This document shows, one piece after another, positions 13,246-50,353 of a stretch of DNA of 64,000 nt. The position numbers and the translations under genes were made by a program. The DNA comes from an uncultured Fibrobacteraceae bacterium (lineage in GTDB: Bacteria; Krumholzibacteriota; Krumholzibacteriia; LZORAL124-64-63): NCBI GenBank assembly GCA_964461255.1, contig CAYWTR010000015.1:6983-70982 (forward strand). The letters run 5' to 3'. Positions within the stretch are counted from its first letter, which is position 1, and each line of letters opens with the position of its first letter. A model generated the notes under the pieces. That model had not been told where the DNA came from. It was given only the letters and a program-made list of their open reading frames with translations, and did no database searches.

Positions 13246-13263
13246 GCGGACCGCCGTGCCGCG

Positions 13264-17098: not shown

Positions 17099-18484
<1,386 letters not shown>

Positions 18485-18510
18485 GGCGCGGCCGTCGCGG
18501 CCGCCTCCTC

Positions 18511-19506: not shown

Positions 19507-19520
19507 GCCGGCGGCTCCGT

Positions 19521-24888: not shown

Positions 24889-24934
24889 GATGCCGCATTC
24901 GGCGCAGCGCCGTCATCGCGAGGGAACGGATGGG

Positions 24935-27012: not shown

Positions 27013-27064
27013 GCGCGGACCCGACCGCAGGAGCCGGGTCCTCGCGCGCGGCGGCCCAGCGTCG

Positions 27065-30000
27065 TCAGATGGCCAGGTGCAGGTAGGTCCTGATCTCCCA
27101 TTCCCGCCCCTCGGGCAGACCCTCCGGATACAGCTCACCTTCGGCGGGCGCGGGCACGCCAGGCGGCCGGTACCGATTGGAGTGCCTGTCCAGTGTGCGG
27201 TAGGCGAAGCGGACGCCGACGCGCGTCTGCGGTAGGTCGAACCAGCGGGGCCTGCCCAAGGTGTAGGACACGTCGGCCATGGCCTGCAAGGGGTACGTCA
27301 GATTGAAATCGCGATGGTAATCGTAGGGGCCGTAGTCGTTGAACTTCAGGAAACCGGCCACGGCCACCGCGGGCCAGACGATGCGGCTGTCCCAGCCGAA
27401 ACGGCGGACCAGGCGCGTGTCGGCGCCGTTGGGCTCGGCCGTGCCCAGATAGAGGTGGCTGATCATGCGCGCTCGGTCGGTCAGCCGGTTGACCACGCGC
27501 CACTTCATCTCCCACAGGTCGCGAGCCGGGGTGCCGCCCGGGAAGGGGTACACCTGCCCTTCCGCGGAGATGAAAAGGCCCGCGTCGGCGGTGGTCTTGT
27601 GGCGCATGAACTTGAGGTCCGCGCTGAAGGCCAGACGGGCGTCCTCGCGGACGTCGCTGTCCCAGGCCCACATCCACGTGGCTGGCGTCGGATCATAGGT
27701 CACCATGATCTCGGCCGCTGTGGTCTCGCGATTGCCGCGCACCGCGAACGGATCGTCCAGGATGTTGCGCGGCCGGCCGGCCGTGCCCTCCAGCAGCTCG
27801 GGGCGGGGCATGGGCCCGACGATCGGTTTCTGCCACAGGACATTGGGTCCGACCTGCCAGTTGCCCAGCGTGACGGCCACGCCGCTCAGGGCGTTGACCT
27901 GGTTGCCCGATCCGCTGTCCTTCAGCTCCCAGCCGGTGAAGGTGGGAATGGCGGTCGGGCCGGCCTCGGCCACAAGGCCCATGTAGGCGCCCTGTCCGTA
28001 CCAGTTCCACCGCCCCGCTTGCCAGGTCAGCTTGCCCCGGAAGCCGAACGTGTCCTCGTCCTTGATCACATCCTGGCGGACGTCGGCGGGCGACAGCGGG
28101 ATCTCGGCCTTGAGGCGGTCTTCGTCTACCAGTTGGAAAGTCTCGCCGACGCGCGGACGTCCCGACCACAGCACGCCCCCCTCGAACCCGAACGGCCCCA
28201 GCGGCGCCTGCATCTGCAGCGACGCCTTGCGGGTCGACCGCACCGGGATCGCCACGGAACTGCTGAACCGGGTCTGCTGGGCGAAATCCTCCTGGAACAT
28301 GCCCGTCCAGTCGATGCCGCGCCAGGACCGGCTGTACTTGAGGAAGAGCGCGGGATTGGCCCCCCACCAGAGCTGGGGGCCTATGGCGACCTTCAGGCCG
28401 TGCAAGGCCTTCTTGCCGGCCATCTCGAAGCCCACCGGCGCCTCGCCGTTGTAGATGTCGACGTTCTCGCCGTAGTAGGCGTCGCGATAGAGCCCGAAGA
28501 AATCCCCCTCGTACTGCCAGTGCAGGTGGCCGGCGCGGTAGAACCCCTCGAGGTTGAACCAGTGGTCGTTCCAGGAAATCGACGACTGGTACACCTTCAC
28601 CCGCTCCAGCGACTCGATCTCGATGGGGTCGCCGTCGCTCCCCTCGGCCAGGCGCGGGCGGCCCCGGTTCTCGTAGAAGATCTCGTCCAGCGGATTGCGG
28701 GGCACGTGGCCCAGCACGTTCACGGAAAGCCGCGCGATGACGGCTTCGCTGGGCTTGGCCTCGAAATCGGCGTAGAACGACTGTCCGTGATCGAATCCTC
28801 GGTACGAGGGGAAGCCGGCCTGCGGCGTCTCCGCGGGCGGCGTGCTGATGTTCTTGCCGCCCGTGCTGTAGGTCTCGTACTCGAGCCGCAGCCCGGCCAA
28901 CCGCACCTTGCTCAGCGTTTCCGTCCTCAGACTGGCGGCGTCGCCGCGGGCCGCGAGCACGCCGCTCATCGGCGTGATGCGGTCGAAGTGCGCGCGGATA
29001 GCGTCGATGCCGGTGCCCGCGCCGTAAGGATCCAGGAGGAACGCCTCGCGCAGGGCGTAGTAGGCGGCGCGAGGGTAGACATGATAGAGGCCGCGGGAAT
29101 CGGAGAATCCCTTGGCGGTGATGCCCCACCACTCCTCGTTCATGTTGTTCTGGCCCTCGACGTAGTCCTCGGGATAGCCGGCGTTGGGCCACGAGGCGTT
29201 GGTGTCGTGGATGTCGAGGCGGCTCTCCTGTCCGAACTTCCACCACCCGTCGCTCCACTGGAAGATCAGGCCGCCGATCGCGTTGCCCACCCGGCCCTTG
29301 CCGGCCGATTGCTCGTAGATCTCGCGCCACTGGCCGATCAGGTAGCGCGCCTGCGTCGCCTGGTCCTCCTGCATGGTCCGGGCGTTGAACGCGTCCGCGC
29401 CGAACTCGGTGAACATCACGGGCACGCCGAGCTTGTCGTGCACGACCTGGAACAGGTCGCGCGCCGAGATGCCGCGGTAGACGTTCGTTCCGAACACATC
29501 CAGACCCGCGCACTCCTCGGCGATCAGATCGATGTACTGCACGTCGCCGTTGGCGATGGCCACCGGCCGGCGGGAATCGCGCTGTTTGATCTCGGCGATG
29601 ATCTCGCCGAAGAGCGAATAGAGGAATCGCGCCCGCGCCGCGTCGCGCTCGCCCTCGGGCAGCGCCTCGATCTCGAACGACTTCCAGGACAGGCCGTAGT
29701 TGTTCTCGTTGCCCAGCAGCCACATCAACACGCCCGGCGTGTCCCGGTAGCGCTCGACCACCTCCACCAGTTCGGCCCTGAGCAACCGCCGCACGCGGGG
29801 ATCGCTGTAGTCGGTCAGGGGGTGCCAGATCCCATCGATCGTCAGCCCGTAGCGGCCCACGAAGTGGTTGATCACCGAGTGGATGCCATAGCGGCGGTAG
29901 ATGTACTCCACCCAGCGCGGCGGCACGTCCGCGCCCTGGCGGATCGTGTTGACGCCCAGGGTCCTGAGCAGCGACATGTCCCGGTCGAGAGCATCCTTGA

Positions 30001-30259
30001 CGACGTCGTCCGGTTGCGCCCACAGGCTGTAGGTGTAGTTCTGCCCGATCGGCATGTAGTCCCAGTTCATGCCCAGGACCATGAAATCGCGGCCGTCCAC
30101 TTGCAGGCGCGACCCGCTCGCATCGGTCACCACCTCGATTCTCTGCCGCTCGCCTCCCTCCTGGGCCCGGGCCCCGATCGGCAGCGAGACCAGGAGCAGG
30201 ACCCACGCGAGGGTGGCCCAACCACCGTGCCGACGGCTGACATCACGCTTCGTGCACAC
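27065..30259 (-). CDS. Secreted clan GH-A (GH2-like TIM barrel) glycoside hydrolase fused to a large Trp-rich C-terminal beta-domain
   Basis: VLMWLLGNENNYG (acid/base NE) and VMFTEFGAD (nucleophile) resemble GH2 beta-glucuronidase motifs. GTG start at 30259 has an AAGGAG RBS and is followed by a signal peptide. Confidence 0.55.
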   Translation of the reverse strand: MCTKRDVSRRHGGWATLAWVLLLVSLPIGARAQEGGERQRIEVVTDASGSRLQVDGRDFMVLGMNWDYMPIGQNYTYSLWAQPDDVVKDALDRDMSLLRTLGVNTIRQGADVPPRWVEYIYRRYGIHSVINHFVGRYGLTIDGIWHPLTDYSDPRVRRLLRAELVEVVERYRDTPGVLMWLLGNENNYGLSWKSFEIEALPEGERDAARARFLYSLFGEIIAEIKQRDSRRPVAIANGDVQYIDLIAEECAGLDVFGTNVYRGISARDLFQVVHDKLGVPVMFTEFGADAFNARTMQEDQATQARYLIGQWREIYEQSAGKGRVGNAIGGLIFQWSDGWWKFGQESRLDIHDTNASWPNAGYPEDYVEGQNNMNEEWWGITAKGFSDSRGLYHVYPRAAYYALREAFLLDPYGAGTGIDAIRAHFDRITPMSGVLAARGDAASLRTETLSKVRLAGLRLEYETYSTGGKNISTPPAETPQAGFPSYRGFDHGQSFYADFEAKPSEAVIARLSVNVLGHVPRNPLDEIFYENRGRPRLAEGSDGDPIEIESLERVKVYQSSISWNDHWFNLEGFYRAGHLHWQYEGDFFGLYRDAYYGENVDIYNGEAPVGFEMAGKKALHGLKVAIGPQLWWGANPALFLKYSRSWRGIDWTGMFQEDFAQQTRFSSSVAIPVRSTRKASLQMQAPLGPFGFEGGVLWSGRPRVGETFQLVDEDRLKAEIPLSPADVRQDVIKDEDTFGFRGKLTWQAGRWNWYGQGAYMGLVAEAGPTAIPTFTGWELKDSGSGNQVNALSGVAVTLGNWQVGPNVLWQKPIVGPMPRPELLEGTAGRPRNILDDPFAVRGNRETTAAEIMVTYDPTPATWMWAWDSDVREDARLAFSADLKFMRHKTTADAGLFISAEGQVYPFPGGTPARDLWEMKWRVVNRLTDRARMISHLYLGTAEPNGADTRLVRRFGWDSRIVWPAVAVAGFLKFNDYGPYDYHRDFNLTYPLQAMADVSYTLGRPRWFDLPQTRVGVRFAYRTLDRHSNRYRPPGVPAPAEGELYPEGLPEGREWEIRTYLHLAI

Positions 30260-31646
30260 GGGATTCTCCTTGGCTGATCGGAATGGAGCCGTCCGCGACG
30301 GCGTTGGCGAGCGCGACTCCGCGATACCAGGACGCGCTGTCCCGGGCAAGGCGTTTCTGGCTCCGGGGGTCGACCGCGAAGAGGCCGAACTTCATGCCGA
30401 AGCCGAAGCCCCATTCGAAATTGTCCATCAGCGTCCAGACAAAGTAGCCCGCCAGGGGAACTCCTTGCTCGATGGCGCGGTGCGCGGCCAGCAAGTGTTC
30501 GCGCAGGTAGGACACGCGCCGCCGATCGGCGCTGCGGCCCGACGCGTCGACCGGGTCGTCGTAGGCGGCGCCGTTCTCCGTGACGTAGACCTTGCGCGGG
30601 CCGTAATCGCGCTGGATCCGCAGGAGGCTCTCGCACAGCCCGTCCGGGTACACCTCCCAATCCATGTCCGTGATCCGCGCCGAGTCCGCCGGCGGCACGG
30701 ACAGCGGCCGCCCGTCCGGCCCCTCGCGCATCACCGCGCGGCTGTAATAGTTGACTCCCAGGAAATCCAGGGGCCTGGAGATGGCGGCCAGATCGCCGTC
30801 ACGCACGAAGGGCAGCTCGGGCCCAACGAGGTGGCCCAGGGCGACCCGGTCGGCGATCGCGTCCGCGGGATAGACGCCCCGGAAGATCGGATCGAGATAC
30901 CAGCGATTGAACGAGCCGTCGAACCAGCGGGCGGCGTCCCGGTCCGCCTCGCTGTCGCTGGCCGGATGCGCCGGGCAATGGATCAGCACGAGGCCGACCT
31001 CTGCCCCTGGCGATGTGTCGCGCAAGACGGCGGCCGCCCCCGCGTGCGACAGCAGGAGATGGTGGCCGACGCGGAGGGCCTCGGCGGGGTCGGTGTGCCC
31101 GGGCGCGTGGCGCCCTTCCTCGTGGCCGAGGGTCGCGACGCACCAGGGTTCGTTGTGGGTCACCCAGCGGCGGATCCGATCGCCGAGCCGCCGCCCGACA
31201 ACCGCCGCGTAGTCCGCAAAGGCTTCGACCGTGTCGCGCTGTGCCCACCCCCCGCGATCCTGCAGAGCCTGCGGGAGATCCCAGTGATAGAGCGTGGGGA
31301 ATGGTTCGATGCCCGCCTGGAGCAGGCCGTCAACCAGGGCGTCGTAGAAGTCGAGGCCGGCGGGGTTCGCCCTGCCGCGCCCCTCGGGCAGGATCCGCGG
31401 CCAGGCGATCGAGAAGCGGTACCCTCCCAGGCCAAGTCCCTCGATGAGCGCGACGTCCTCGCGCCAGCGATGATAGTGGTCGCAAGCGATCTCGGGGGTC
31501 GACCCGTCGGCGACATGCCCGCGACCCGCTGCGAAGGAGTCCCAGATCGATGCCCCCCGGCCTCCCGCCCGGCAGCCGCCCTCGATCTGCTGGGCCGAGG
31601 TGGCCACACCCCAGACGAAACCCTCAGGGAATTCCCGGCGGGGCAT
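30243..31646 (-). CDS. Glycoside hydrolase family 1 beta-glucosidase
   Basis: THNEPW (acid/base) and YVTENG (nucleophile). N-terminus FPEGFVWGVATSAQQIEG. Confidence 0.85.
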   Translation of the reverse strand: MPRREFPEGFVWGVATSAQQIEGGCRAGGRGASIWDSFAAGRGHVADGSTPEIACDHYHRWREDVALIEGLGLGGYRFSIAWPRILPEGRGRANPAGLDFYDALVDGLLQAGIEPFPTLYHWDLPQALQDRGGWAQRDTVEAFADYAAVVGRRLGDRIRRWVTHNEPWCVATLGHEEGRHAPGHTDPAEALRVGHHLLLSHAGAAAVLRDTSPGAEVGLVLIHCPAHPASDSEADRDAARWFDGSFNRWYLDPIFRGVYPADAIADRVALGHLVGPELPFVRDGDLAAISRPLDFLGVNYYSRAVMREGPDGRPLSVPPADSARITDMDWEVYPDGLCESLLRIQRDYGPRKVYVTENGAAYDDPVDASGRSADRRRVSYLREHLLAAHRAIEQGVPLAGYFVWTLMDNFEWGFGFGMKFGLFAVDPRSQKRLARDSASWYRGVALANAVADGSIPISQGESRVHEA

Positions 31647-31735
31647 TTCCAGCGCCTCCCCTGGAACGGTGGTCTGCGCAACCGCCGACCGGCGGCGGAG
31701 AACCGGGAACATCGCTCGCGGCCAGAAAAAAGTCT

Positions 31736-31764
31736 TTGTTCGGACTCCGAACATAGTGTATGAT
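31736..31764 (+). promoter_or_regulatory. sigma-70-type promoter (TTGTTC-N17-TATGAT) overlapped by the perfect palindrome GTTCGGACTCCGAAC (31738-31752)
   Basis: Hexamers and 17-nt spacer read directly. The 7-1-7 palindrome covers the -35/spacer, the classic repressor-operator position. The promoter drives the 31882 gene. Confidence 0.45.
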
Positions 31765-31881
31765 ACTGGTGGCTCTGTCAAGACACGATTCACGGGCATC
31801 GCACAGAGAAGATGCGACGCCGCAAGCCGGTGCAGGGAGTTCCGATGGCAGGGTGACGGCCTGCCAAGAGAGGTGGTTGAG

Positions 31882-32856
31882 ATGCAAACCAAGGCCGCTG
31901 CTGTTCTGGCGGTTGTCGTGCTGATCGGCATGACGCCAGCGATGGGTTCGGCCCTCGCGCCCTACAGCCAGGATTTCGAGGGGCTGGCTCTGCCGTCGCC
32001 CGGCGGACTGCTCGGCGACGGCTGGCTTGTGTACGGCAACGTCTTCAGCCCGGGCGGGACGTACCTGTACGGATACGGTCCTTTCCCGGCGCCCAACGAC
32101 GGCGCCGCGTTCTGCGCCATCGCCGCCGACGAGGGAGGGGCAGAACAGGGCGCTCACCAGCTGTCCGTCTACAGCGATTACAACAACGGCGATCACGCCG
32201 CCGGCAATCTGATCGAGGCCAACGTCTTCCAGGAGCAGACGATCCTGCCCGCAGATGTCGGCAACGTCTGGATCTTCGAGTTCCAGGCCAAGCTCGGCAA
32301 CCTGGTCGCCCCCTCGACCGCCGCGGCCTTCATCAAGACGCTCGATCCCGGCGCCGGTTACGCCATGACCAATTTCATCACCGCGGACATGACGGCCATT
32401 CCCACGACCTGGTCGGGCTACTCCTTGTCGATCACGATCGATTCGAGCCTGGCGGGTCAGATCCTGCAGTTCGGATTCATGAACACGGCGACGCTCTACG
32501 TATCGTCAGGCGTCTTCTACGACAACGTGAACTTCCGCCTGAGCACGGCGACCGACGTGCCCGGGGGCGACGCCGCGCGCGGCGCGATGCTGCGCCAGAA
32601 CTATCCGAACCCGTTCAACCCGTCGACACGGATCGACTTCGCGTTGGAGAGCGCGGGGCCCGTCGAGCTGTCCGTCTTCGACGCCGGCGGCCGCAGGGTC
32701 GCCACTCTGCTGCAGCGCAACCTCGCGGCCGGCGAGCACCATGCTGTCTGGAACGGGCGGACGGACGGCGGCCGGCCCGCACCCGCGGGCCAGTACTACT
32801 ACCTCCTGGAGACGGCGACGACGCGCATCTCCCGGGGCATGGTGCTGGTGAAGTAG
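31882..32856 (+). CDS. Secreted protein of unknown function with T9SS-type C-terminal sorting domain (paralog of 38219-38926)
   Basis: Signal peptide MQTKAAAVLAVVVLIGMTPAMGSALA. Core LAPYSQDFEGLALPSPGGLLGDGWLVYGNVF... C-terminus NYPNPFNPSTRIDFAL...GQYYYLL...SRGMVLVK. Confidence 0.6.
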   Translation: MQTKAAAVLAVVVLIGMTPAMGSALAPYSQDFEGLALPSPGGLLGDGWLVYGNVFSPGGTYLYGYGPFPAPNDGAAFCAIAADEGGAEQGAHQLSVYSDYNNGDHAAGNLIEANVFQEQTILPADVGNVWIFEFQAKLGNLVAPSTAAAFIKTLDPGAGYAMTNFITADMTAIPTTWSGYSLSITIDSSLAGQILQFGFMNTATLYVSSGVFYDNVNFRLSTATDVPGGDAARGAMLRQNYPNPFNPSTRIDFALESAGPVELSVFDAGGRRVATLLQRNLAAGEHHAVWNGRTDGGRPAPAGQYYYLLETATTRISRGMVLVK

Positions 32857-32958
32857 CCGGCGCCGACACGGGGGGCCGACGGCCTCGGCCCCCCCCATCG
32901 TCCACGCCGAGAAGCGAGACGTTCATGAGACCCCGCACTCCACTCCGGACGGCAACAG

Positions 32959-35900
32959 ATGGAGGGTAGGCCGGCACCATCGCCGCTGCCGGCGCCGCTC
33001 GGCGCCGCGCCCGCATCCCCGGCGGGCGGTCTCGTCGACTTCGAGGGGGAGCCTTACTACCGGATTTCTGCCTATCAGCGGCTGGCTCCCTTCCTGGTGT
33101 GCCTGGCAAGCGACACCGATCTCTGGATGTTCGTCTCCTCCCGGGGCGGGCTCACGGCCGGCAGGGTCGACCCCGATGGCAGCCTCTTCCCCTACGAGAC
33201 CGTCGATCGGCTGCACGATGCCCACCACCACACCGGACCGGTGAGCGTGATCCGATTCGAGCGCGGCGCGAGCGCGCCCGCGACGTGGGAACCATTCTCC
33301 GAGACGGCGGCGCAGCATCCCGCCAGCGAACGGAACCTCCTCAAGAACGTCGCCGGCAATCGCCTCGTGTTCGAGGAGACCCGCCACGACCTCAAGCTCT
33401 GCTTCCGGTACTCCTGGGCCGCCTGCGACGCGTTCGGGTGGGTGCGGACAGCGGTTCTGGAGAATCGCGGCCCCTGTCCCGTCCACATCTCCCTGCTGGA
33501 CGGCCTGCGGAACGTGCTGCCCCATGGCGCGCCGCTCGCCCTGTACCAGCAGGCGTCCAACCTGGTCGACGCCTACAAGAAGGCGGAGGCGGATCCGGAG
33601 ACCGGGCTGGGCATATTCTCGCTGACGGCCGGGATCACCGACCGGGCGGAGGCGCTGGAGTGCCTCACCGCCAACGTCGCCTGGTGCTGCGGCCTTGAGC
33701 GGTTCCGGGTGCACCTGTCGCTCGCCTGCCTGGCCGACTTCCGGCAAGGGCGGATCGTCGCGGGCCAGCACGCCCTCAATGGGGCCAGGGGGAATTACCT
33801 GGTGAGCTCGCGGCTGGACCTGGACCCCGGCGAGAGCGCGCGCTGGCATCTGGTCTGCGACGCGGGCAGGGACCACGTCCAGATCGCCGCCCTGCGCCGG
33901 CGATTGATCGCGCAGGAGGACCTGCCCGCGCGGATCGACGCCGGCCTGCGGCAGGCCGCCGAGAATCTCCGGCGCTGCGTCGGCAGCGCCGATGGCATTC
34001 AGCTCTCGGGCCGTCCCGAGACCTGGAGCCATCATTTCGCGAACGTCCTCTTCAACAACATGCGCGGCGGCATCTTCTGGCGGAACCACGAGGTTCCGGT
34101 GGGCGACTTCGCCGATTTCCTCCGCACGCGCAACGCCGCCGTTGCCGCGCGGCAGGAGCGGCTGCTCGGCGAGCTGCCCGCCGTGATCGCGTCGCCCCGG
34201 CTGCGCGCCATCGCCTCCGGCAGCGGCGACGCCGACTTCGCGCGGCTGGCCCACGAATACCTCCCGCTTTACTTCGGCCGCCGTCACGGCGATCCCAGCC
34301 GGCCCTGGAACCGCTTCGCGATCCGCGTGCGCGCTCGCGACGGCGCACAGAAGCTGCACTACGAGGGCAACTGGCGGGACATCTTCCAGAACTGGGAGGC
34401 CCTCTGCGCCTCGTACCCTTGCTTTCTGCCCAACGTCGTCGCCAAGTTCGTCAACGCCTCGACGGTGGACGGCTTCAACCCGTACCACATCTCCCGCGAC
34501 GGCATCGCCTGGGAGACCGTCTCGCCGGACGACCCCTGGAGCAACATCGGGTACTGGGGCGACCACCAGATCATCTACCTGCTGAAGCTGCTCGAGGCGT
34601 TGGATCGCTACGACCCGGCGGCGCTGGACCGGATGCTCGCCGCGGAGATCTTCTGCTACGCCGACGTGCCGTACCGGATCCGACCGTACGCGGCGATCCT
34701 GCAGAACCCGCGAGCCACCATCGAGTACGACGCCGCGCGCGCCGCGCGCGTCGCCAGGCGGGTCGCGCAGCTGGGCGCCGACGGCAAGCTCCTCGGCGGC
34801 GCGGACGGAACGATCCACCACGTCAATCTGCTGGAAAAGCTGCTCGTGCCGGCCCTGTCCAAACTGTCGAACCTGATCCCCGGCGCCGGCATCTGGATGA
34901 ACACCCAGCGGCCGGAGTGGAACGACGCGAACAACGCGCTCGGCGGGGGCGGCGTGTCGGTGGTCACGCTCTGCTACTTGCGCCGCTACCTGGCCTTCCT
35001 CGCCGTCCGGCTGCAGGCCGCCGGCGATGCGTCGCTGCCCCTGTCCAGCGAGGTGGCCGACTGGTTCGCCGGGGTCGAGGCGGCGCTGGAGCGCGAGCGG
35101 GGAGCGTTGCGCGCCGGCGTCTACGACCCGCGCGACCGCAAGAGGCTGATGGATCTGCTGGGCGGCGCTTTCGATGCGTACCGGGAAGCGGTGTACGCGC
35201 GCGGCTTCTCGGGGCGGAAGCTCCTGCCGGTCGCGCGGGTGGTGCGACTGTGCCGCACGGGGCTGGCGCACCTGGACCACGCGATCGGCGCCAACCAGCG
35301 CGACGATGGCCTCTACCATGGCTACAACCTGCTGGAGATATCCGCGGACGGCAGCCGGGCCGGCCTGGGTCGCCTGCCGCTGATGCTCGAGGGGCAGGTG
35401 GCCGCCCTCAGCTCGGGAGCGCTCACGGCCGAGCAGTCGCTGGCTGTCCTGGAGCGTCTCTTCGCCAGCGCGCTCTACCGGCCCGATCAACGCTCCTTCT
35501 TGCTCTACCCCGAGCGGTCGCTGCCGGGCTTCCTGGCCAAGAACGTCGTGCCGGACGAGCCCGCCGCCGCTATCCCCCTGCTGCGAGACATGTTGGCGGC
35601 GGGGGATTCGACCGTGCTGGCGCGTGACATCGACGGCGTGATCCGCTTCGCCGGGCATCTGCGAAACGCCCGCGATCTCGCGGTCCTGCTGGAAGACCTC
35701 GAGCGGCGATCAGAATGGTCGGCCGCCGTCGCGCGGGACCGCGGCGCCGTGCTCGATCTGTTCGAGCAAGTCTTCCGCCACAGGTCCTACACCGGGCGCT
35801 CCGGCGTGATGCACGCCTACGAAGGCCTCGGTTGTATCTACTGGCACATGGTCGCGAAGCTGCTGCTCGCGGCTCAGGAGGCCGCGCTGCGCGCCGAGCG

Positions 35901-36450
35901 GGAGGGCGCGCCCGCCTCGGTCCGCGACGGCCTGAAGGCCGTCTACTTCCGGATCCGCGCCGGTCTGGGCCACGAAAAGACGGTGGCCGAGTACGGCGCC
36001 TTCCCCACCGACCCCCACTCGCACACGCCGCCCGGAGGCGGGGCGCAGCAGCCGGGCATGACCGGGCAGGTGAAGGAAGAGATTCTCACCCGCCTGGGCG
36101 AGCTCGGGGTCTGCGTCGAGAGCGGAACGCTGCGGCTGAGGCCCTGCCTCTTGCGTGAGGACGAGCTGCTCGAGCGGCCCGCCGAGTTCCGGTATTACGA
36201 TGTCGGTGGCCACGCGCGGGCGCTCGCTCTGCCCAGCGGCAGCCTGGCCTTCACCTTCTGCCAGGTGCCGGTGGTCTACGCGCGCGCCGCCGCAGCGGCA
36301 AGCATGAAGATCGTCCGTGCCGACGGGAGCGAAGAGGAACGCCCCGGCGACACGCTCGACGCCCGCTGGAGCGCGGAGCTGTTCGCGCGCAGCGGGGCGA
36401 TCGATCGCATCGAGGTCAAGGTCTCGCCGCACGGCATCGACCCCGTCTAG
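32959..36450 (+). CDS. Large cytoplasmic GH94-like glycoside phosphorylase candidate, possibly a beta-glucan phosphorylase of GH94/GH149/GH161 type
   Basis: 1163 aa with no signal peptide. RPEWNDANNALGG resembles the GH94 general-acid GDWND motif. NWRDIFQNWEAL is typical of (alpha/alpha)6-barrel phosphorylases. Size fits GH149/GH161. Confidence 0.45.
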   Translation: MEGRPAPSPLPAPLGAAPASPAGGLVDFEGEPYYRISAYQRLAPFLVCLASDTDLWMFVSSRGGLTAGRVDPDGSLFPYETVDRLHDAHHHTGPVSVIRFERGASAPATWEPFSETAAQHPASERNLLKNVAGNRLVFEETRHDLKLCFRYSWAACDAFGWVRTAVLENRGPCPVHISLLDGLRNVLPHGAPLALYQQASNLVDAYKKAEADPETGLGIFSLTAGITDRAEALECLTANVAWCCGLERFRVHLSLACLADFRQGRIVAGQHALNGARGNYLVSSRLDLDPGESARWHLVCDAGRDHVQIAALRRRLIAQEDLPARIDAGLRQAAENLRRCVGSADGIQLSGRPETWSHHFANVLFNNMRGGIFWRNHEVPVGDFADFLRTRNAAVAARQERLLGELPAVIASPRLRAIASGSGDADFARLAHEYLPLYFGRRHGDPSRPWNRFAIRVRARDGAQKLHYEGNWRDIFQNWEALCASYPCFLPNVVAKFVNASTVDGFNPYHISRDGIAWETVSPDDPWSNIGYWGDHQIIYLLKLLEALDRYDPAALDRMLAAEIFCYADVPYRIRPYAAILQNPRATIEYDAARAARVARRVAQLGADGKLLGGADGTIHHVNLLEKLLVPALSKLSNLIPGAGIWMNTQRPEWNDANNALGGGGVSVVTLCYLRRYLAFLAVRLQAAGDASLPLSSEVADWFAGVEAALERERGALRAGVYDPRDRKRLMDLLGGAFDAYREAVYARGFSGRKLLPVARVVRLCRTGLAHLDHAIGANQRDDGLYHGYNLLEISADGSRAGLGRLPLMLEGQVAALSSGALTAEQSLAVLERLFASALYRPDQRSFLLYPERSLPGFLAKNVVPDEPAAAIPLLRDMLAAGDSTVLARDIDGVIRFAGHLRNARDLAVLLEDLERRSEWSAAVARDRGAVLDLFEQVFRHRSYTGRSGVMHAYEGLGCIYWHMVAKLLLAAQEAALRAEREGAPASVRDGLKAVYFRIRAGLGHEKTVAEYGAFPTDPHSHTPPGGGAQQPGMTGQVKEEILTRLGELGVCVESGTLRLRPCLLREDELLERPAEFRYYDVGGHARALALPSGSLAFTFCQVPVVYARAAAAASMKIVRADGSEEERPGDTLDARWSAELFARSGAIDRIEVKVSPHGIDPV

Positions 36451-36500
36451 CCGGCGAGCGCCCCTGGTTCGAAACACCGCCAGTCGCACAGGAGTCGATC

Positions 36501-38111
36501 ATGAAGCCGATATCCCTCCCGCCGGCGGCCGCTCTCGCCCTGGCCTTCCTCGCTCTGAGCAGCGCAGAGGCCCCGGGGCAATGCATCCTCGCCAATCCCA
36601 GCTTCGAAATCGTCGGTTCGGGAGGAACCGTTTTCGGCGGCTGGTCTCAGTTCGGAGCCATCGGCGCGGTCACGACGGCCGTCCACGGGGCCAGAGCGGC
36701 GCGCGTCAGCGGTCCGAACCAGGGCGGTTGGGATGTCTCGGGTTACTGGCAGCCGCTGGACTGCGTCCCTGGGGAGCGGTGGGCGGTCACGGGCCACGTG
36801 CGCCATCCCGGGAGCAAGCCTCTGACAGGCCAGTGCATCGCCCTGGTCAACCTCGAGTGGCGCGATGCCGGCGGCAACTTGATCAGCTACGATTCCCACA
36901 CCGTCGCCGACGCCTCCACGCCGACGGACACGTACCTGGATTTCTCGTTCGTGAGCGCCGCGGCGCCCGCGGGGACCGTCAAGACGCGGCTCCTGCTCGG
37001 CGTCCTGCAGAGCCCGGCCGATCCGTCGCCTGATGTGCACTTCGACCAGATCACATGCCACAGCACGACGCCGCCGACCATCGACGACATACAGTGGATG
37101 GATTTCCCCGGGGGCACCACTCTCGTCTTCGGCGGCAGGACCTGGCGCGTCAAGGGCCCCGGCTACTACGGTCCCGGCGGCAACCTGTTCAGCAACGCCG
37201 CCAGCAGCGTCTGGGTCGACGCGAGCGCCCGGTTGCACCTGACGCTCAAGAGGATCGGCGGTTCGTGGTACAGCACCGAGGTGGTCGTCGAGCAGCCGCT
37301 GGGCTACGGAGACTACATCGTGACCACCGTCGGCCGACTGGACCAGCTCGATCCCCAGGCGGTGCTGGGCCTGTTCCTGTGGCAGTATGGCGATTGCTGG
37401 GACGAAGGCTACCTGTGGTGGAACGCCTTCAACGAGGTCGATATCGAATACAGCCGCTGGGGCAACCCTGCCGCGGACATCGGGCAGTTCGTCGCCCAGC
37501 CCTATGATTACCCGGGCAACATCCGGCGCTTCGCCGCCACCTTCGGGGACGACGAATTGACCAGCCACGCCATGCGTTGGCTGCCCGATCGCGTCGAGTA
37601 CCGCGTCTGGCGCGGCGGGCCCGGCGACGAATCGCCGGCGACCACGGTCAGCGCCTGGACCTACGCCGGCCCGCACATCCCACGCCCCGAGCAGCCCCGA
37701 CTGCACCTGAACCTGTGGAAGCTCGGCGGCACGCCGGCCGCGGACCAGGAAGTGATCTTCCAGAACTTCACCTTCGTTCCGGAGGGTCTGACCGCCGTGG
37801 CGGCGCAGCAGAGCCCCGCCTCTCCCGCGACCCCGGCCGGCCGTCTGCACCCGGCGGCGCCGAATCCGTTCAATCCCTCGACCACGGCCCGCTTCGATCT
37901 GATCCGCGGCGGCCGCTTTCGGCTTGCGGTCTACGACTTGGGGGGAGGCATCGTGCGGACTCTCGCCAGCGGCGACCTGCCCGCCGGCAGCCATTCGGCC
38001 AGGTGGGACGGGCGGGACGACCATGGCCGCCCTCTGCCCTCGGGAGTGTACATCCTGCGGTTGCAAGGCAGCGATTTCAGCGACAGCCGGCCGGTCGTGC
38101 TGACGAAGTGA
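36501..38111 (+). CDS. Secreted CBM4/9-like plus GH16-like (concanavalin-type) beta-glucanase with T9SS-type C-terminal sorting domain
   Basis: Signal peptide. N-terminal ANPSFE...GWSQ CBM-like module. NEVDIEYSRWG (ExDxE). C-terminus NPFNPSTTARFDL...GVYILRL...RPVVLTK. Confidence 0.55.
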   Translation: MKPISLPPAAALALAFLALSSAEAPGQCILANPSFEIVGSGGTVFGGWSQFGAIGAVTTAVHGARAARVSGPNQGGWDVSGYWQPLDCVPGERWAVTGHVRHPGSKPLTGQCIALVNLEWRDAGGNLISYDSHTVADASTPTDTYLDFSFVSAAAPAGTVKTRLLLGVLQSPADPSPDVHFDQITCHSTTPPTIDDIQWMDFPGGTTLVFGGRTWRVKGPGYYGPGGNLFSNAASSVWVDASARLHLTLKRIGGSWYSTEVVVEQPLGYGDYIVTTVGRLDQLDPQAVLGLFLWQYGDCWDEGYLWWNAFNEVDIEYSRWGNPAADIGQFVAQPYDYPGNIRRFAATFGDDELTSHAMRWLPDRVEYRVWRGGPGDESPATTVSAWTYAGPHIPRPEQPRLHLNLWKLGGTPAADQEVIFQNFTFVPEGLTAVAAQQSPASPATPAGRLHPAAPNPFNPSTTARFDLIRGGRFRLAVYDLGGGIVRTLASGDLPAGSHSARWDGRDDHGRPLPSGVYILRLQGSDFSDSRPVVLTK

Positions 38112-38218
38112 GCCGACGGCCGGTCGCCCCAGGCGCGCCGGCCGCCGCGTGCACGAGCCGATATAGGGAAGGGCCGCCTCCCTGACGGAAGACGGCCCTT
38201 GATTTGGGTCACTCCATA

Positions 38219-38926
38219 TCAGCGGAACAGCGACTTCACGCCGCCCCAGGAGCTTTCCTCGCTCGGCACCGGTGTGCCGGTGTAGAACTGCACGTCGTCG
38301 TAGAAGACGCCCGACGGCTCGTACAGCCGCGCGTGGCTGACGAATCCGAATTGCAGGATCTGGCCCACGAGGCCAGCGTCGATCGTGATCGTCAACGTGT
38401 GCGCCGACCAGGTCGTGGGGATGGTCGTCATGTCGGCGGTGATGTAGTTGGTCATGGCGTAGCCGGCGCCGGGATCCAGGGTCTTGATGAAGGCCGCGGC
38501 GGTCGTGCTCCCGGCCAGGTTGCCGAGCTTGGCCTGGAAGCTGTAGGTCCAGGTCTCGCCGACATCTTCAGCGGTGACGATTTGCTCCTGGAAGACGTTG
38601 GACTCGATGATGCCGTCGGCGTGGTTGCCGTTGTTGTAATCGCTGTAGACGGACAGGCATTGCCCGCCGATGCCTTCGCCGGCGACGATCGCGCAGAACG
38701 CGGCGCCATCGTTGGGGGCCGGGAACGGGCCGTAGCCGTACCACCAACCCCAGTCGTACCCGAAGACGTTGCCGTACACCAGCCAGCCGTCGCCGAGCAA
38801 CCCGCCCGGCGATGGCAGAGGCAGGCTCTCGAAGTCCTGCCCATAGGGCGCCAGCGCCTGGCTCGCCGCGGGCAGCAGGCAGACCAGCATGGCGGCCCCG
38901 AGGATGGAAGCGGTTCGTGCACGCAT
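38219..38926 (-). CDS. Secreted paralog of the 31882 protein, ending in the short SWGGVKSLFR tail instead of a T9SS domain
   Basis: Signal peptide MRARTASILGAAMLVCLLPAASQALA. The core is about 65% identical to 31882-32856. C-terminus ...TGTPVPSEESSWGGVKSLFR. Confidence 0.6.
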   Translation of the reverse strand: MRARTASILGAAMLVCLLPAASQALAPYGQDFESLPLPSPGGLLGDGWLVYGNVFGYDWGWWYGYGPFPAPNDGAAFCAIVAGEGIGGQCLSVYSDYNNGNHADGIIESNVFQEQIVTAEDVGETWTYSFQAKLGNLAGSTTAAAFIKTLDPGAGYAMTNYITADMTTIPTTWSAHTLTITIDAGLVGQILQFGFVSHARLYEPSGVFYDDVQFYTGTPVPSEESSWGGVKSLFR

Positions 38927-39039
38927 CTCTCGACCTTTCTGCGAGGGGTTCCCGCTTGCTCTCGGAACGCCCGAAACGATCGCGGTCCGGTTGGCAAGTC
39001 GCTCCAAAGTTGATTCTCTGTCGTATATCATAGACTATG

Positions 39040-39099
39040 TTCGGTCACCGAATCAAGTCAAAAATGCCGCTTGACCGGATTCGGATCCGGAGATACTTT
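39040..39099. promoter_or_regulatory. Divergent control region with nested inverted repeats: TTCGGTCACCGAA (39040-39052) and CCGAATCAAGTCAA/TTGACCGGATTCGG (39048-39084), overlapping a TTGACC-N17-TACTTT promoter
   Basis: Palindromes read directly. They share the TTCGG-N3-CCGAA half-site arrangement with the operator at 31738-31752. Confidence 0.4.
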
Positions 39100-39174
39100 G
39101 TTCGGGTTTCGTACAAAGAAATTCTCCTCAGCGGGCGATCCTCCGAACCTGGAGGCGGCAAACGAGATGGCACG

Positions 39175-40665
39175 GTGAGCGCCGCCGCGCAGTCCATCAC
39201 GGCCCCCGAGGACCGCATCAAGCTGACCCACAAGCTCGCCTACGGGGCGGGAGCGTTCGTCAACAATCTGCTGGCCGCCGCCAGCGGCGGCATGATGATC
39301 GTCCTGAACCTCGGGCTGGGACTCAACCCGGCTACCGTGGGCCTGCTCGGCGCGCTGCCGCGTTTGACCGACGCGATCACCGACCCCCTCATGGGTTTCA
39401 TTTCCGACCAGACCCGCAGCAAGTGGGGACGACGGCGACCGTACATCTTCGGCGGCGCCATCGCCGCGGGGTTGATCTTCGCGCTGCTGTGGCAGCTCCC
39501 CCGCGGCCAGAGCGAGACCTTCTATTTCGTCTACTTCCTCGTCGGCTCGATTCTCTTCTATGCGGGCTACACGGTCTTCGCCACGCCGTGGGTGGCGCTG
39601 GGCTACGAGCTGACGCCCGACTACAACGAGCGCACGCGCTTGATGGGCGCCCAGAACTTCATCGGTCAGCTTGCCTATGTCGCCTCTCCCTGGTTCCTCT
39701 GGATCATGACCTACGAGGGGTTCTTCCCCGATCAGGTGGCGGGGGCGGCGGCACTGGCGATCGTCGTCGCGCTGGTGGCCGCCGGTCTGGGGATCGTGCC
39801 GGCGATCTTCCTGCGCGAACGCATGCAAAACATCGCCGCGGCCGGAGTGGCGGCCGCCAAGCAGCGCGCGACGACGAGGGACAGTGGTGGCCTTGCCCGC
39901 AACATCAAGGCATTCAGCCGGGGCTTCGGCGTCACGCTCTCCTCCGGCCCCTTCCTCAAGCTCTGTCTGGCGACTTTCCTCGTTTTCAATGGCTTCATGC
40001 TCATATCATCGTTCCAGTACTATGTGATCATCTACTACGTGTGCGGCGGCGTGCAGGTCACCGGCGCCAAGTACGCTGGATACGCGGGGACGGTGGGAGG
40101 CCTCAGCACCTTCGCCGTCGTCGCGTTCGTCGCCTGGCTCGCCACGCGGATCGGCAAGCGTCGCGCCTTCTTCTTCTCCACCGGGGTGTCCATCGTCGGC
40201 TACGCGCTCAAGTGGATCTGCTACAACCCGTCCTACCCGTTGCTGTCCGTCCTGCCGGCGCCTCTGCTGGCTTTCAGCCTGGGCGGTCTGTTCACGCTCA
40301 TGCCGTCAATGGTCGCCGACGTCGTGGACACGGACGAACTCAAGACCCACCAGCGCCGCGAGGGGATGTTCGGGTCGATCTTCTGGTTCATGGTGAAGCT
40401 CGGTATGTCCGCCGCCCTGGCCGGCGGCGGCTATCTGCTCAACGCGACCGGCTTCGACGTGGCGCTGGGAGGGGAGCAGTCCGGCCGGACGATCATGCTG
40501 ATGCGGCTCTGCGACGCGGGCATTCCCATCCTGACCTCGATCATCGCCATCTGGGCGGTGGCGACCTTCCCCATCACCGAAAAGAGAGCCAATGAGGTCC
40601 GCAGGGAGCTGGAGCGCCGCCGGGGCAGGCCAGAGGCCGCGCTGGCATCACCAGCCGAGCCCTAG
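39175..40665 (+). CDS. MFS transporter, glycoside-pentoside-hexuronide (GPH):cation symporter family
   Basis: GPH signature DQTRSKWGRRRPYIFGG and 12 predicted TM segments. Start is uncertain: GTG at 39175 was chosen, while the ORF opens at 39037 inside the regulatory palindromes. Confidence 0.7.
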   Translation: MSAAAQSITAPEDRIKLTHKLAYGAGAFVNNLLAAASGGMMIVLNLGLGLNPATVGLLGALPRLTDAITDPLMGFISDQTRSKWGRRRPYIFGGAIAAGLIFALLWQLPRGQSETFYFVYFLVGSILFYAGYTVFATPWVALGYELTPDYNERTRLMGAQNFIGQLAYVASPWFLWIMTYEGFFPDQVAGAAALAIVVALVAAGLGIVPAIFLRERMQNIAAAGVAAAKQRATTRDSGGLARNIKAFSRGFGVTLSSGPFLKLCLATFLVFNGFMLISSFQYYVIIYYVCGGVQVTGAKYAGYAGTVGGLSTFAVVAFVAWLATRIGKRRAFFFSTGVSIVGYALKWICYNPSYPLLSVLPAPLLAFSLGGLFTLMPSMVADVVDTDELKTHQRREGMFGSIFWFMVKLGMSAALAGGGYLLNATGFDVALGGEQSGRTIMLMRLCDAGIPILTSIIAIWAVATFPITEKRANEVRRELERRRGRPEAALASPAEP

Positions 40666-40699
40666 AGCGGTCGGGACCCAGCGCCGCAGCGTCCCGGCG

Positions 40700-41746: not shown

Positions 41747-41781
41747 CCGCGCGGGAGGTGGAGCGACCTTCCCCCCGCGCC

Positions 41782-44487: not shown

Positions 44488-44670
44488 CGGCGGCTCCGGC
44501 TCCGGGACAGGAAGAGGCGGCGTGGCTCGCCAAAGATGCACGCCCCGCCGCCTTCGCGCCAACCCGGCGGATCCGCGGCCGGCCGGCGCTTGACGCGGAC
44601 CGGGGTTGAGCCGATAAAGAACCGAAGGGCGCCGCGCGCGTCGGCCCCGCTCGTTACGGAAAGGAGTATC

Positions 44671-45834: not shown

Positions 45835-45863
45835 GGACCGGAGCCGGAACGCGGGCGCGCCCC

Positions 45864-49054
<3,191 letters not shown>

Positions 49055-49058
<4 letters not shown>

Positions 49059-50209: not shown

Positions 50210-50353
50210 CGATCTTCTCCCGCTCGCGGCCGCGGGCCCCTCCCGGCAGCATGATCTGTATGATAGCGCCGCGGCGCCCGAAGGCGAAAAGCAAAACAGA
50301 GAAAAGGCCGCCTCCCCTCAGGGGAGGCGGCCGGGAGAGTGGTCAAGCCACGG

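What the first reader, a model, noticed from the sequence alone, without database searches (positions are those of the whole stretch)
32959..36450. 1163-aa cytoplasmic GH94-like putative glycoside phosphorylase
Very large for GH94, fitting the GH149/GH161 beta-1,3-glucan phosphorylases. It shows only motif-level similarity (EWNDANN versus GDWND; NWRDIFQNWEAL). It may represent a divergent or new phosphorylase subfamily with biotechnological interest for oligosaccharide synthesis.
Basis: inference. Interest (0 to 1): 0.55.

Follow-up and report, generated by a model that had tools for sequence, protein, structure and literature searches.

The report
Ordinary GH149 beta-1,3-glucan phosphorylase gene
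The 1163-residue protein is a clear member of the known GH149 family of beta-1,3-glucan phosphorylases, sitting in a typical laminarin-type glucan utilisation gene cluster, so it is a routine annotation and not a new enzyme family.

Summary
The ORF is real: 32959..36450 (+), 1163 aa, with a coding-type codon-position GC pattern. The overlapping 911-aa antisense ORF is a high-GC shadow.

It is not a divergent or new phosphorylase subfamily.
- It scores 1436.8 bits against NCBIfam NF058639.1, the GH149 1,3-beta-D-glucan phosphorylase equivalog. The cutoff is 1150 and nearly the whole profile is covered.
- It aligns end to end (E=0, 43.7% identity) with Pro_7066, the crystallised and assayed GH149 enzyme (PDB 6HQ6).
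- GH161 and a 'cellobiose phosphorylase' chain give only local matches (E about 1e-10).
- All published active-site residues are present: R473-D474, W654-N655-D656, E955 and H963. They are invariant in 78 aligned family members. Both GH149-specific inserts are present.
- There is no N-terminal hydrophobic segment, so the protein is probably cytoplasmic.

The neighbours form a beta-1,3-glucan utilisation cluster: a ROK regulator, a GH16 lipoprotein, a GH158-like protein, GH1, an MFS_2 transporter, GH17 and type IX secretion (T9SS)-tagged secreted proteins. The gene order is conserved in Krumholzibacteriota, Eisenbacteria and Fibrobacteraceae MAGs. It resembles the published 'Type II' GH149 cluster.

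Side finding: the gene just downstream looks like an unannotated carbohydrate-binding module plus divergent GH16-like glucanase.

Interest in the finding itself is low.

The parts
32959..36450 (+). GH149 beta-1,3-glucan phosphorylase gene (1163 aa), with no signal peptide
   Evidence: ORF. NCBIfam NF058639.1 scores 1436.8 bits against cutoff 1150, covering residues 23-1155 and profile positions 7-1133 of 1134. PDB 6HQ6/6HQ8 E=0. 43.7% identity. Hydropathy.
34375..34380 (+). R473-D474: the RD motif that recognises the sugar 1-phosphate (Pro_7066 R470-D471)
   Evidence: Mapping onto the 6HQ6 chain. Invariant in 78/78 sequences. Role taken from PMC6771811. Translation.
34918..34926 (+). W654-N655-D656: the catalytic-loop WND motif; D656 is the predicted general acid (Pro_7066 D653)
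   Evidence: Role taken from PMC6771811.
35821..35847 (+). E955 (donor hydroxyl contact, Pro_7066 E951) and H963 (phosphate recognition, Pro_7066 H959)
   Evidence: Roles taken from PMC6771811.
34072..34254 (+). Residues 372-432: counterpart of the GH149-specific insert Dom 1 (Pro_7066 370-428)
   Evidence: Aligned with only 2 gap positions, 32% identity. Insert defined in PMC6771811.
35524..35784 (+). Residues 856-942: counterpart of the GH149-specific insert Dom 2 (Pro_7066 852-938)
   Evidence: Aligned with 1 gap on each side, 33% identity.
24935..26206 (+). ROK-family protein with an N-terminal winged helix-turn-helix (NagC/Mlc-like): probable regulator of the cluster
   Evidence: Pfam ROK 8.7e-52 plus weaker helix-turn-helix (HTH) family hits. 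NCBIfam NagC and Mlc models hit below their cutoffs. Conserved in L005, L004 and L007.
26203..27012 (+). GH16 lipoprotein (probable endo-beta-1,3-glucanase, cell surface or periplasm)
   Evidence: Pfam GH16 4.5e-25. N-terminus ...LLLCVGMAGCGE. Present in 47 of 80 GH149 loci.
27065..30259 (-). 1064-aa secreted protein: N-terminal clan GH-A TIM barrel closest to GH158, plus about 700 aa of unknown function
   Evidence: Pfam Glyco_hydro_2_C 1.7e-5. Profile against PDB: 6PAL 2.6e-6 and 9ORO (named GH158) 1.7e-4; that 6PAL is the BuGH158 endo-beta-1,3-glucanase is from my own knowledge, the table lists it as 'Uncharacterized protein'. Present in 32 of 80 GH149 loci.
30243..31646 (-). GH1 beta-glucosidase, cytoplasmic
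   Evidence: TIGR03356 scores 579.8 bits against cutoff 478.5. No signal peptide.
31882..32856 (+). 324-aa secreted protein: unknown 220-aa domain plus a T9SS C-terminal sorting domain
   Evidence: FlgD_ig and CHU_C hits. Conserved upstream of GH149 in L005, L004 and L012.
36501..38111 (+). 536-aa secreted protein: carbohydrate-binding module (CBM)-like domain, divergent GH16-like jelly roll (E312-x-D314-x-E316) and T9SS sorting domain
   Evidence: Conserved next to GH149 in L004-L008.
38219..38890 (-). 223-aa paralogue (66% identity) of the N-terminal domain of the 324-aa protein
   Evidence: BLASTP 3e-102.
39064..40665 (+). MFS_2 (PF13347) sugar/oligosaccharide transporter, inner membrane
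   Evidence: Pfam 3.8e-61. Present in 48 of 80 GH149 loci.
40811..41746 (+). GH17 protein without a signal peptide (cytoplasmic beta-1,3-glucanase or transglycosylase)
   Evidence: Pfam GH17 2.5e-8. Hydropathy. Present in 49 of 80 GH149 loci.
23503..24888 (+). 461-aa lipoprotein with a carbohydrate-binding-module-like domain and a Big_2 domain (surface glycan-binding-protein-like)
   Evidence: Invariant lipobox Cys26. Profile against PDB: 1WMX and 2C24 at 2.8e-4, plus Ig-like domains; that these two are CBM30 modules is from my own knowledge. Present in 27 of 80 GH149 loci.

Best explanation
The gene encodes a cytoplasmic GH149 (clan GH-Q) inverting glycoside phosphorylase. It removes glucose units from the non-reducing end of imported beta-1,3-gluco-oligosaccharides, using inorganic phosphate as the nucleophile. 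D656 acts as the general acid. The products are alpha-D-glucose 1-phosphate and a glucan one unit shorter. It is the energy-saving cytoplasmic step of a beta-1,3-glucan (laminarin-type) utilisation cluster. In the proposed pathway, secreted or lipid-anchored enzymes cut the polymer outside the cell: GH16, the GH158-like protein and the CBM-GH16-like T9SS cargo. The MFS_2 transporter imports the oligosaccharides. GH149, with GH17 and GH1, then reduces them to glucose 1-phosphate and glucose. The ROK/NagC-like protein probably regulates the cluster. What is shown: family membership, conserved active-site residues, the domain set and conserved gene neighbourhood. What is inferred: the activity itself, chain-length preference, direction in vivo, the localisation of each partner and the regulator's role.
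For: NCBIfam GH149 equivalog scores 1436.8 bits against cutoff 1150, with nearly full profile coverage. Full-length alignment to the assayed and crystallised Pro_7066 (6HQ6/6HQ8): E=0, 1045.7 bits, 43.7% identity over 1126 positions. R473, D474, W654, N655, D656, E955 and H963 match the published active-site residues (PMC6771811) and are invariant in 78/78 sequences. All domains are aligned, including the GH149-only inserts Dom 1 and Dom 2 and the 36-residue loop next to the active site. There is no signal peptide. Neighbours are GH16, GH1, MFS_2, GH17 and a GH158-like protein. Across 80 GH149 loci from species-representative genomes, GH16 co-occurs in 47, GH17 in 49, MFS in 48 and the GH158-like protein in 32. 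Gene order is nearly identical in a Krumholzibacteriota MAG (L005). The GH16 + cytoplasmic GH17 + PF13347 transporter + GH149 combination is the published 'Type II' cluster (PMC5827456).
Against: No biochemical data exist for this protein or for any close relative. The nearest characterised enzyme is only 44% identical. The surface oligosaccharide-binding site of Pro_7066 is not conserved here: Y841->R845, E990->A994, Y993->F997, E994->R998. Those positions also vary across the family, so substrate targeting or chain-length behaviour may differ. No phosphoglucomutase was found in the cluster. No TonB-dependent or SusC-type outer-membrane importer was found among the ORFs of the window that I scanned, so the outer-membrane uptake step of the pathway is unassigned.
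Confidence: 0.9

Rival explanations
1. It is a GH149-fold phosphorylase with a different substrate or chain-length preference from Pro_7066/EgP1. Examples are beta-1,6-branched laminari-oligosaccharides, long chains only, or a different acceptor. That would make it a functionally distinct clade within GH149.
For: It is only 43.7% identical to Pro_7066. The four surface-binding-site residues are replaced. It belongs to a clade of MAG proteins (Krumholzibacteriota, Eisenbacteria, Fibrobacteraceae; 50-71% identity) with no characterised member. EgP1 and Pro_7066, which are 45% identical, already differ in acceptor kinetics (PMC5827456).
Against: All donor-site, phosphate-site and catalytic residues are invariant. 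The score is above an equivalog-level cutoff. The context is the same GH16/GH17/MFS set as in other GH149 loci. [quoted passage not shown]
Confidence: 0.07
2. It works mainly in the synthetic direction in vivo, building an intracellular beta-1,3-glucan reserve from glucose 1-phosphate.
For: GH149 reactions are reversible, and Pro_7066 makes oligosaccharides up to DP 11 in vitro (PMC5827456).
Against: The gene sits among secreted glucanases, a transporter and beta-glucosidases, which is a catabolic layout. No glucan-storage genes were seen in the cluster.
Confidence: 0.02
3. It belongs to GH161 or GH94, or is a hydrolase of the same (alpha/alpha)6 fold instead of a phosphorylase.
For: There are local matches to GH161 structures (9QQK, 1.1e-10) and to a chain named 'cellobiose phosphorylase' (9H8V, 3.6e-10) around the WND loop.
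Against: Those matches score 43 and 41.5 bits over short stretches, against 1045.7 bits over the full length for GH149. No Pfam family, and so no GH94 model, matches at E<=1. The phosphate-recognition His and the RD motif are conserved.
Confidence: 0.01

Closest known systems
Pro_7066, bacterial GH149 beta-1,3-oligoglucan phosphorylase (PDB 6HQ6, 6HQ8; PMC5827456, PMC6771811)
   Same: Colinear over residues 24-1155 with only a few single-residue gaps. Same five-part domain layout, including inserts Dom 1 and Dom 2. Identical RD, WND, Glu and His active-site residues. No signal peptide.
   Different: 43.7% identity. The surface oligosaccharide-binding residues Y841, E990, Y993 and E994 are R, A, F and R here. 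Pro_7066 is Flavobacteria-like (76% to L032). This protein belongs to a Krumholzibacteriota/Eisenbacteria-type clade.
'Type II' GH149 gene clusters and Bacteroidota laminarin PULs (PMC5827456; Muricauda laminarin PUL, PMC13188888)
   Same: GH149 together with a secreted GH16, a cytoplasmic GH17 and a PF13347 MFS transporter. The large 'GH2-like' gene and the 461-aa lipoprotein gene are also adjacent to GH149 in Flavobacteria-type loci such as L023, L043 and L077.
   Different: No TonB-dependent receptor or SusC/D pair was found among the scanned ORFs of the 64-kb window. Instead several secreted proteins carry T9SS C-terminal sorting domains. GH1 takes the place of GH3/GH30. The regulator is ROK/NagC-like, not a histidine-kinase/response-regulator pair, LuxR, LacI or AraC.
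GH161 beta-1,3-glucan phosphorylases (PapP; PDB 9QQK) and GH94 phosphorylases
   Same: Same clan GH-Q, with a catalytic Asp in a W-x-D loop and a conserved phosphate-binding His (PMC6484121). Local alignment around residues 530-698.
   Different: Only about 20% overall similarity between the families (PMC6484121). Here the matches are 43 bits or less, against 1046 bits for GH149. GH161 cannot use glucose as acceptor or cleave the disaccharide, whereas the characterised GH149 enzymes can.

Membership tests
GH149 | Full-length sequence similarity to the family, above a curated family threshold | tested here: met
   NF058639.1 (equivalog) scores 1436.8 bits against cutoff 1150, profile positions 7-1133 of 1134. 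6HQ6 gives E=0 and 1045.7 bits.
GH149 | Catalytic-loop WND motif with the Asp general acid (Pro_7066 W651-N652-D653) | tested here: met
   W654-N655-D656. Invariant in 78/78 sequences.
GH149 | RD motif for sugar 1-phosphate recognition (R470-D471), Glu951 and the phosphate-recognition His959 | tested here: met
   R473-D474, E955 and H963. Invariant in 78/78 sequences.
GH149 | Domain layout: N-terminal beta-sandwich, helical linker, (alpha/alpha)6 domain with the two GH149-only inserts Dom 1 and Dom 2, and C-terminal jelly roll | tested here: met
   Every segment of 6HQ6 is aligned with few gaps. Dom 1 corresponds to residues 372-432 and Dom 2 to 856-942. This was tested at sequence level only; no 3D model of this protein was made.
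GH149 | Phosphate-dependent cleavage of beta-1,3-gluco-oligosaccharides to alpha-glucose 1-phosphate, active down to the disaccharide | not testable with these tools
   This needs enzyme assays. It is shown only for EgP1 and Pro_7066 (PMC5827456, PMC6484121).
GH149 | Typical (not defining) feature: co-location with beta-1,3-glucanases, beta-glucosidases and a sugar transporter | tested here: met
   GH16, GH17, GH1, MFS_2 and a GH158-like protein lie within 10 kb. Co-occurrence counts across 80 loci.
GH149 | Surface oligosaccharide-binding site of Pro_7066 (Y841, E990, Y993, E994). This is a feature of that enzyme's subgroup, not of the family. | tested here: not met
   The residues here are R845, A994, F997 and R998. 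The positions vary across the family, as the paper also reports.
GH161 | Full-length similarity to GH161 members | tested here: not met
   9QQK gives only three short stretches, 43.2 bits, E 1.1e-10.
GH94 | Match to GH94 family models or structures | tested here: not met
   No Pfam family at E<=1. The only other phosphorylase-named PDB match is the 'cellobiose phosphorylase' chain 9H8V (41.5 bits), over residues 530-698.

The most novel reading that the evidence does not exclude
The GH149 enzymes of the Krumholzibacteriota/Eisenbacteria/Fibrobacteraceae-type clade may differ functionally from the two characterised enzymes, because they lack the Pro_7066 surface binding site. They may belong to a distinct kind of beta-glucan utilisation locus that is T9SS-dependent and has no SusCD or TonB receptor. 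Its secreted arm would include protein families that current models do not recognise: a CBM plus divergent GH16-like enzyme with an ExDxE motif, a 220-aa domain of unknown fold present in two paralogous copies, and a GH158-like protein with a 700-aa extension.
Probability: 0.2. Interest if true: 0.35.

Novelty: new member of a known kind. Interest (0 to 1): 0.12.

Why it matters
For the finding itself it matters little. It is an uncharacterised orthologue of a family defined in 2018, with a crystal structure and a curated annotation model, so no open question is touched.

There is some practical value. Most close relatives that carry a name are labelled 'hypothetical protein' in public records, so the family assignment improves annotation of candidate-phylum MAGs. 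It also indicates that these bacteria use beta-1,3-glucans such as laminarin through an ATP-saving phosphorolytic route.

As a biocatalyst it is one of several thousand available GH149 sequences (8000 homologues at the scoring limit). It has no feature that singles it out.

The unannotated secreted proteins around it are the more promising targets for enzyme discovery.

Tried and rejected
- Pfam on the protein gave nothing at E<=1. No Pfam model matched this protein, so a Pfam-only check would wrongly have suggested novelty.
- GH161 and GH94 membership were considered and rejected.
- The 911-aa antisense ORF at 32923..35658 was rejected as a shadow ORF.
- The promoter and terminator scan of 23000..42000 was uninformative. 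Terminator-like sites were at shuffle level and promoter-like sites numbered only four, none upstream of the GH149 gene.
- Rfam and the tRNA scan of the whole window found nothing.
- The GTDB species-representative scan did not find the window's own genome. The best locus was 60-62% identical, so the source organism is only inferred as Krumholzibacteriota-like.
- Sequence and profile searches of the PDB for the 324-aa T9SS protein and its paralogue matched only the C-terminal FlgD-like sorting domain.
- An AlphaFold model of that protein, built from a two-sequence alignment, was unusable (pLDDT 38.1) and was not fold-searched.
- The single-sequence PDB search for the 1064-aa protein found nothing. 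Only the profile search reached GH158.
- A literature search for Krumholzibacteria plus laminarin found no paper whose title or abstract concerns such a locus; the five hits were not opened.
Full report
**The observation**

The window is about 70% G+C throughout, so long ORFs occur by chance in several frames. At the stated place there is an ATG-to-stop ORF of 1163 codons, 32959..36450 on the + strand. A 911-codon ORF overlaps it on the opposite strand at 32923..35658.

The + frame has the codon-position G+C pattern of a real gene in a high-GC genome: 0.72/0.49/0.91 for positions 1/2/3. It also has thousands of full-length homologues. The antisense ORF is therefore a shadow.

GNWRDIFQNWEAL is at 34366..34404 and RPEWNDANNAL is at 34909..34941. 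The first 45 residues are Pro/Ala-rich with no hydrophobic core. Their maximum 10-residue hydropathy is 0.96, against 2.7-3.4 for the secreted neighbours. This fits a cytoplasmic protein.

**What it is**

Pfam returns nothing, even at E<=1. NCBIfam gives one hit, NF058639.1, '1,3-beta-D-glucan phosphorylase, GH149 family'. It is an equivalog-level model. The score is 1436.8 bits against a curated cutoff of 1150, covering residues 23-1155 and profile positions 7-1133 of 1134.

Against all PDB sequences the best match is 6HQ6/6HQ8, the bacterial GH149 beta-1,3-oligosaccharide phosphorylase Pro_7066. It gives E=0 and 1045.7 bits, colinear from residue 24 to 1155. Counting the printed alignment gives 492 identities in 1126 aligned positions, or 43.7%.

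The next matches are GH161 structures (9QQK, E 1.1e-10, 43 bits) and a chain named 'cellobiose phosphorylase' (9H8V, 3.6e-10). Both are restricted to short stretches around the catalytic loop. The protein is therefore GH149, not GH161 or GH94.

**Active site and domains**

The Pro_7066 structure paper (PMC6771811) names these residues:
- the R470-D471 motif, which recognises the sugar 1-phosphate;
- E951, which contacts a ligand mimicking the donor hydroxyls;
- H959, predicted to recognise phosphate.

After correcting for the 19-residue tag offset of the PDB chain, these map to W654-N655-D656, R473-D474, E955 and H963 here. All are identical.

I aligned the query and Pro_7066 with 76 GH149 proteins extracted from species-representative genomes. 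All seven positions are invariant.

Every structural segment of Pro_7066 has an aligned counterpart with few gaps:

| Segment | Identity to Pro_7066 |
|---|---|
| N-terminal beta-sandwich | 39% |
| Helical linker | 16% |
| (alpha/alpha)6 catalytic domain | 48% |
| GH149-only insert Dom 1 (query 372-432) | 32% |
| GH149-only insert Dom 2 (query 856-942) | 33% |
| 36-residue loop next to the active site | 39%, no gaps |
| C-terminal jelly roll | 38% |

The one published feature that is not conserved is the remote surface oligosaccharide-binding site. Y841, E990, Y993 and E994 of Pro_7066 are R845, A994, F997 and R998 here. These positions vary across the family. The paper itself says that these residues are less conserved in the bacterial sequences that share lower identity with Pro_7066.

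**How common it is**

The best 120 are 59-100% identical over 95-100% of the query.

The exact sequence is already in public data, in NCBI and in Logan assemblies. The nearest relatives that carry names come from Candidatus Krumholzibacteriota, Eisenbacteria and Gemmatimonas MAGs, and are labelled 'hypothetical protein'.

In species-representative genomes more than 600 loci matched. The closest are a Krumholzibacteriota MAG (L005, 60%) and Eisenbacteria MAGs (L006 at 60%, L008 at 54%). Flavobacteria, Saprospiraceae, Planctomycetota, Gammaproteobacteria and others are at 42-50%.

The median identity of the query to the other 77 sequences is 44%. The two biochemically characterised GH149 enzymes are 45% identical to each other (PMC5827456). 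This protein therefore lies inside the normal spread of the family.

**Neighbourhood**

Using public gene calls for the identical contig and family searches, the cluster reads as follows.

| Coordinates | Strand | Product |
|---|---|---|
| 19521..23048 | - | BNR/Sortilin-repeat protein with T9SS tail |
| 23503..24888 | + | 461-aa lipoprotein |
| 24935..26206 | + | ROK protein with N-terminal helix-turn-helix (NagC/Mlc-like) |
| 26203..27012 | + | GH16 lipoprotein |
| 27065..30259 | - | 1064-aa secreted protein |
| 30243..31646 | - | GH1 beta-glucosidase (TIGR03356, above cutoff) |
| 31882..32856 | + | 324-aa T9SS-tagged protein |
| 32959..36450 | + | GH149 |
| 36501..38111 | + | 536-aa T9SS-tagged protein |
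| 38219..38890 | - | 223-aa protein |
| 39064..40665 | + | MFS_2 transporter |
| 40811..41746 | + | GH17 without signal peptide |

Beyond 41746 come unrelated genes: an ADP-forming acyl-CoA synthetase/GNAT fusion, DUF2891 and an AcrB-type efflux pump.

Hydropathy of the N-termini places GH149, GH1, GH17 and ROK in the cytoplasm. The others are secreted or lipid-anchored.

In the 80 fetched GH149 loci, tblastn finds a GH16 orthologue in 47, GH17 in 49, the MFS transporter in 48, the 1064-aa protein in 32 and the 461-aa lipoprotein in 27. The ROK, GH1 and T9SS-tagged genes recur mainly in the Krumholzibacteriota, Eisenbacteria and Fibrobacteraceae-type loci (L004-L008, L012; a few also in more distant loci such as L009, L016, L021 and L031). 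L005 has almost the same gene order as the window.

The combination of extracellular GH16, cytoplasmic GH17, PF13347 transporter and GH149 is what the GH149 founding paper calls a 'Type II' cluster (PMC5827456). Marine Muricauda laminarin loci also carry the 'GH2', GH16, GH149, GH17 and MFS genes (PMC13188888).

The differences here are a GH1 enzyme in place of GH3/GH30, a ROK-type regulator and T9SS-tagged secreted proteins. In addition, no TonB-dependent receptor or SusC/D pair was found among the ORFs of the 64-kb window that I scanned.

**Mechanism**

These steps are inferred from the family, not shown for this protein.

Secreted or surface enzymes cut beta-1,3-glucan into oligosaccharides, and the MFS_2 transporter carries them into the cytoplasm. 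There the GH149 enzyme attacks the non-reducing-end linkage with inorganic phosphate while D656 protonates the leaving oxygen. The products are alpha-glucose 1-phosphate (inversion of configuration) and a chain one unit shorter.

Characterised GH149 enzymes work down to the disaccharide (PMC6484121). GH1 and GH17 would deal with the remaining or branched fragments. Each phosphorolytic step saves the ATP that a kinase would otherwise spend.

Chain-length preference cannot be read from the sequence.

**Comparison, novelty and verdict**

Every sequence-testable defining feature of GH149 is met. The enzymatic activity cannot be tested here. GH161 and GH94 membership fail.

Its idea of a divergent or new subfamily is not supported. 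I rate this a new, uncharacterised member of a known kind, and its interest as low.

The remaining non-trivial possibility is that this MAG clade differs in substrate handling and belongs to a T9SS-based variant of the laminarin locus. That is a modest claim and is untested.

**Side results**

*The 536-aa protein immediately downstream (36501..38111).*
- It has no family hit apart from its C-terminal sorting domain.
- It belongs to a family of at least 753 proteins. The few that carry names are called 'FlgD immunoglobulin-like domain containing', 'T9SS type A sorting domain-containing' or 'hypothetical' protein.
- Forty-seven aligned members share an invariant E312-x-D314-x-E316 within NEIDIEYSRWG.
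- A profile-profile comparison with the GH16 alignment of this cluster aligns 184 columns, with that motif opposite the GH16 EIDIME motif. Support is weak (E=0.009, probability 4.5%).
- An AlphaFold model (mean pLDDT 81.9) was compared with the PDB. One group of hits is CBM22, CBM16 and CBM61 carbohydrate-binding modules. I assign these to the N-terminal beta-sandwich by domain size and the model's strand layout, because the output gives no query ranges. The other group is GH16 jelly rolls, which I assign to the central domain. These include beta-1,3-glucanases (8VA4, 4PQ9, 2HYK, 4BQ1 and the Rv0315 orthologues), with target TM-scores of 0.52-0.65 at 13-18% identity.
- It is thus probably a secreted, divergent GH16-like glucanase that current models miss.

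*The 1064-aa protein.* Its N-terminal TIM barrel matches GH158 structures best by profile: 6PAL at 2.6e-6 and 9ORO (named GH158) at 1.7e-4. That 6PAL is the BuGH158 endo-beta-1,3-glucanase is from my own knowledge; the table lists it as 'Uncharacterized protein'.

*The 461-aa lipoprotein.* It shows a carbohydrate-binding-module-like domain (1WMX and 2C24, which I know as CBM30 modules) and an Ig-like domain.

*The 324-aa and 223-aa proteins.* They are 66% identical paralogues. Their fold remains unknown.

Noticed in passing
window 36501..38111 (+): This 536-aa secreted protein lies 51 nt downstream of the GH149 gene. Public records label the few named relatives 'FlgD Ig-like domain', 'T9SS sorting domain' or 'hypothetical'. 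It has an invariant E312-x-D314-x-E316 motif. An AlphaFold model (pLDDT 81.9) has fold-search hits to carbohydrate-binding modules and to GH16 beta-1,3-glucanases, and the protein ends in a T9SS sorting domain. The family has at least 753 members and no Pfam or NCBIfam model for its catalytic part. It is probably a divergent GH16-like glucanase.
   Followed up: yes
window 27065..30259 (-): This 1064-aa secreted protein has an N-terminal TIM barrel closest, by profile, to GH158 structures (6PAL 2.6e-6, 9ORO 1.7e-4). About 700 highly conserved residues after it have no known domain. It is adjacent to GH149 in 32 of 80 loci, including Flavobacteria. A marine laminarin-locus paper lists a 'GH2' gene at the corresponding place.
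   Followed up: partly
window 31882..32856 (+) and 38219..38890 (-): Two paralogous genes flank the GH149/536-aa pair in opposite orientation. They are 66% identical over about 220 aa. One carries a T9SS sorting domain and the other does not. The shared domain has no match in Pfam, NCBIfam or PDB sequences. A shallow AlphaFold run failed (pLDDT 38). The called start of the 223-aa copy may be too far downstream, because it has almost no signal peptide.
   Followed up: partly
window 23503..24888 (+): This 461-aa lipoprotein has an invariant Cys26, a carbohydrate-binding-module-like domain (1WMX/2C24) and a Big_2-type Ig domain. It resembles a surface glycan-binding protein. Orthologues sit in 27 of 80 GH149 loci, usually between the 1064-aa gene and GH16.
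   Followed up: partly
window 19521..23048 (-): This 1175-aa secreted protein has Sortilin-Vps10/BNR repeats and a T9SS sorting domain. It has a below-cutoff match to the 'F510_1955 family glycosylhydrolase' model. It lies at the edge of the glucan cluster and is not found in the other GH149 loci.
   Followed up: no
window 32923..35658 (-): A 911-codon ORF runs antisense to the GH149 gene. It is a by-product of 70% G+C, and the + frame carries the coding GC3 signal. Similar shadow ORFs overlap most genes of the window.
   Followed up: yes
whole window, 1..64000: No TonB-dependent receptor or SusC/D gene was found among the ORFs scanned. At least five secreted proteins carry FlgD_ig or Por_Secre_tail sorting domains: 19521..23048, 31882..32856, 36501..38111, 62357..63961, plus a PPC-domain protein at 51756..52727. 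The route of oligosaccharides across the outer membrane is unassigned.
   Followed up: partly
window 53005..56685 (-); 3658..5118 (+) and 17099..19441 (-); 13660..15542 (-): Unrelated genes of possible interest: a 1226-aa TPR-CHAT protein, two PAS/sigma-54 activators, and two adjacent CbiA/ParA-type ATPases with 4Fe-4S ferredoxin inserts.
   Followed up: no
window 1..4000: G+C is 60-63% in the first 4 kb, against about 70% in the rest of the window. The genes there encode a CCG/4Fe-4S protein and a DUF1847/Nitro_FeMo-Co protein.
   Followed up: no
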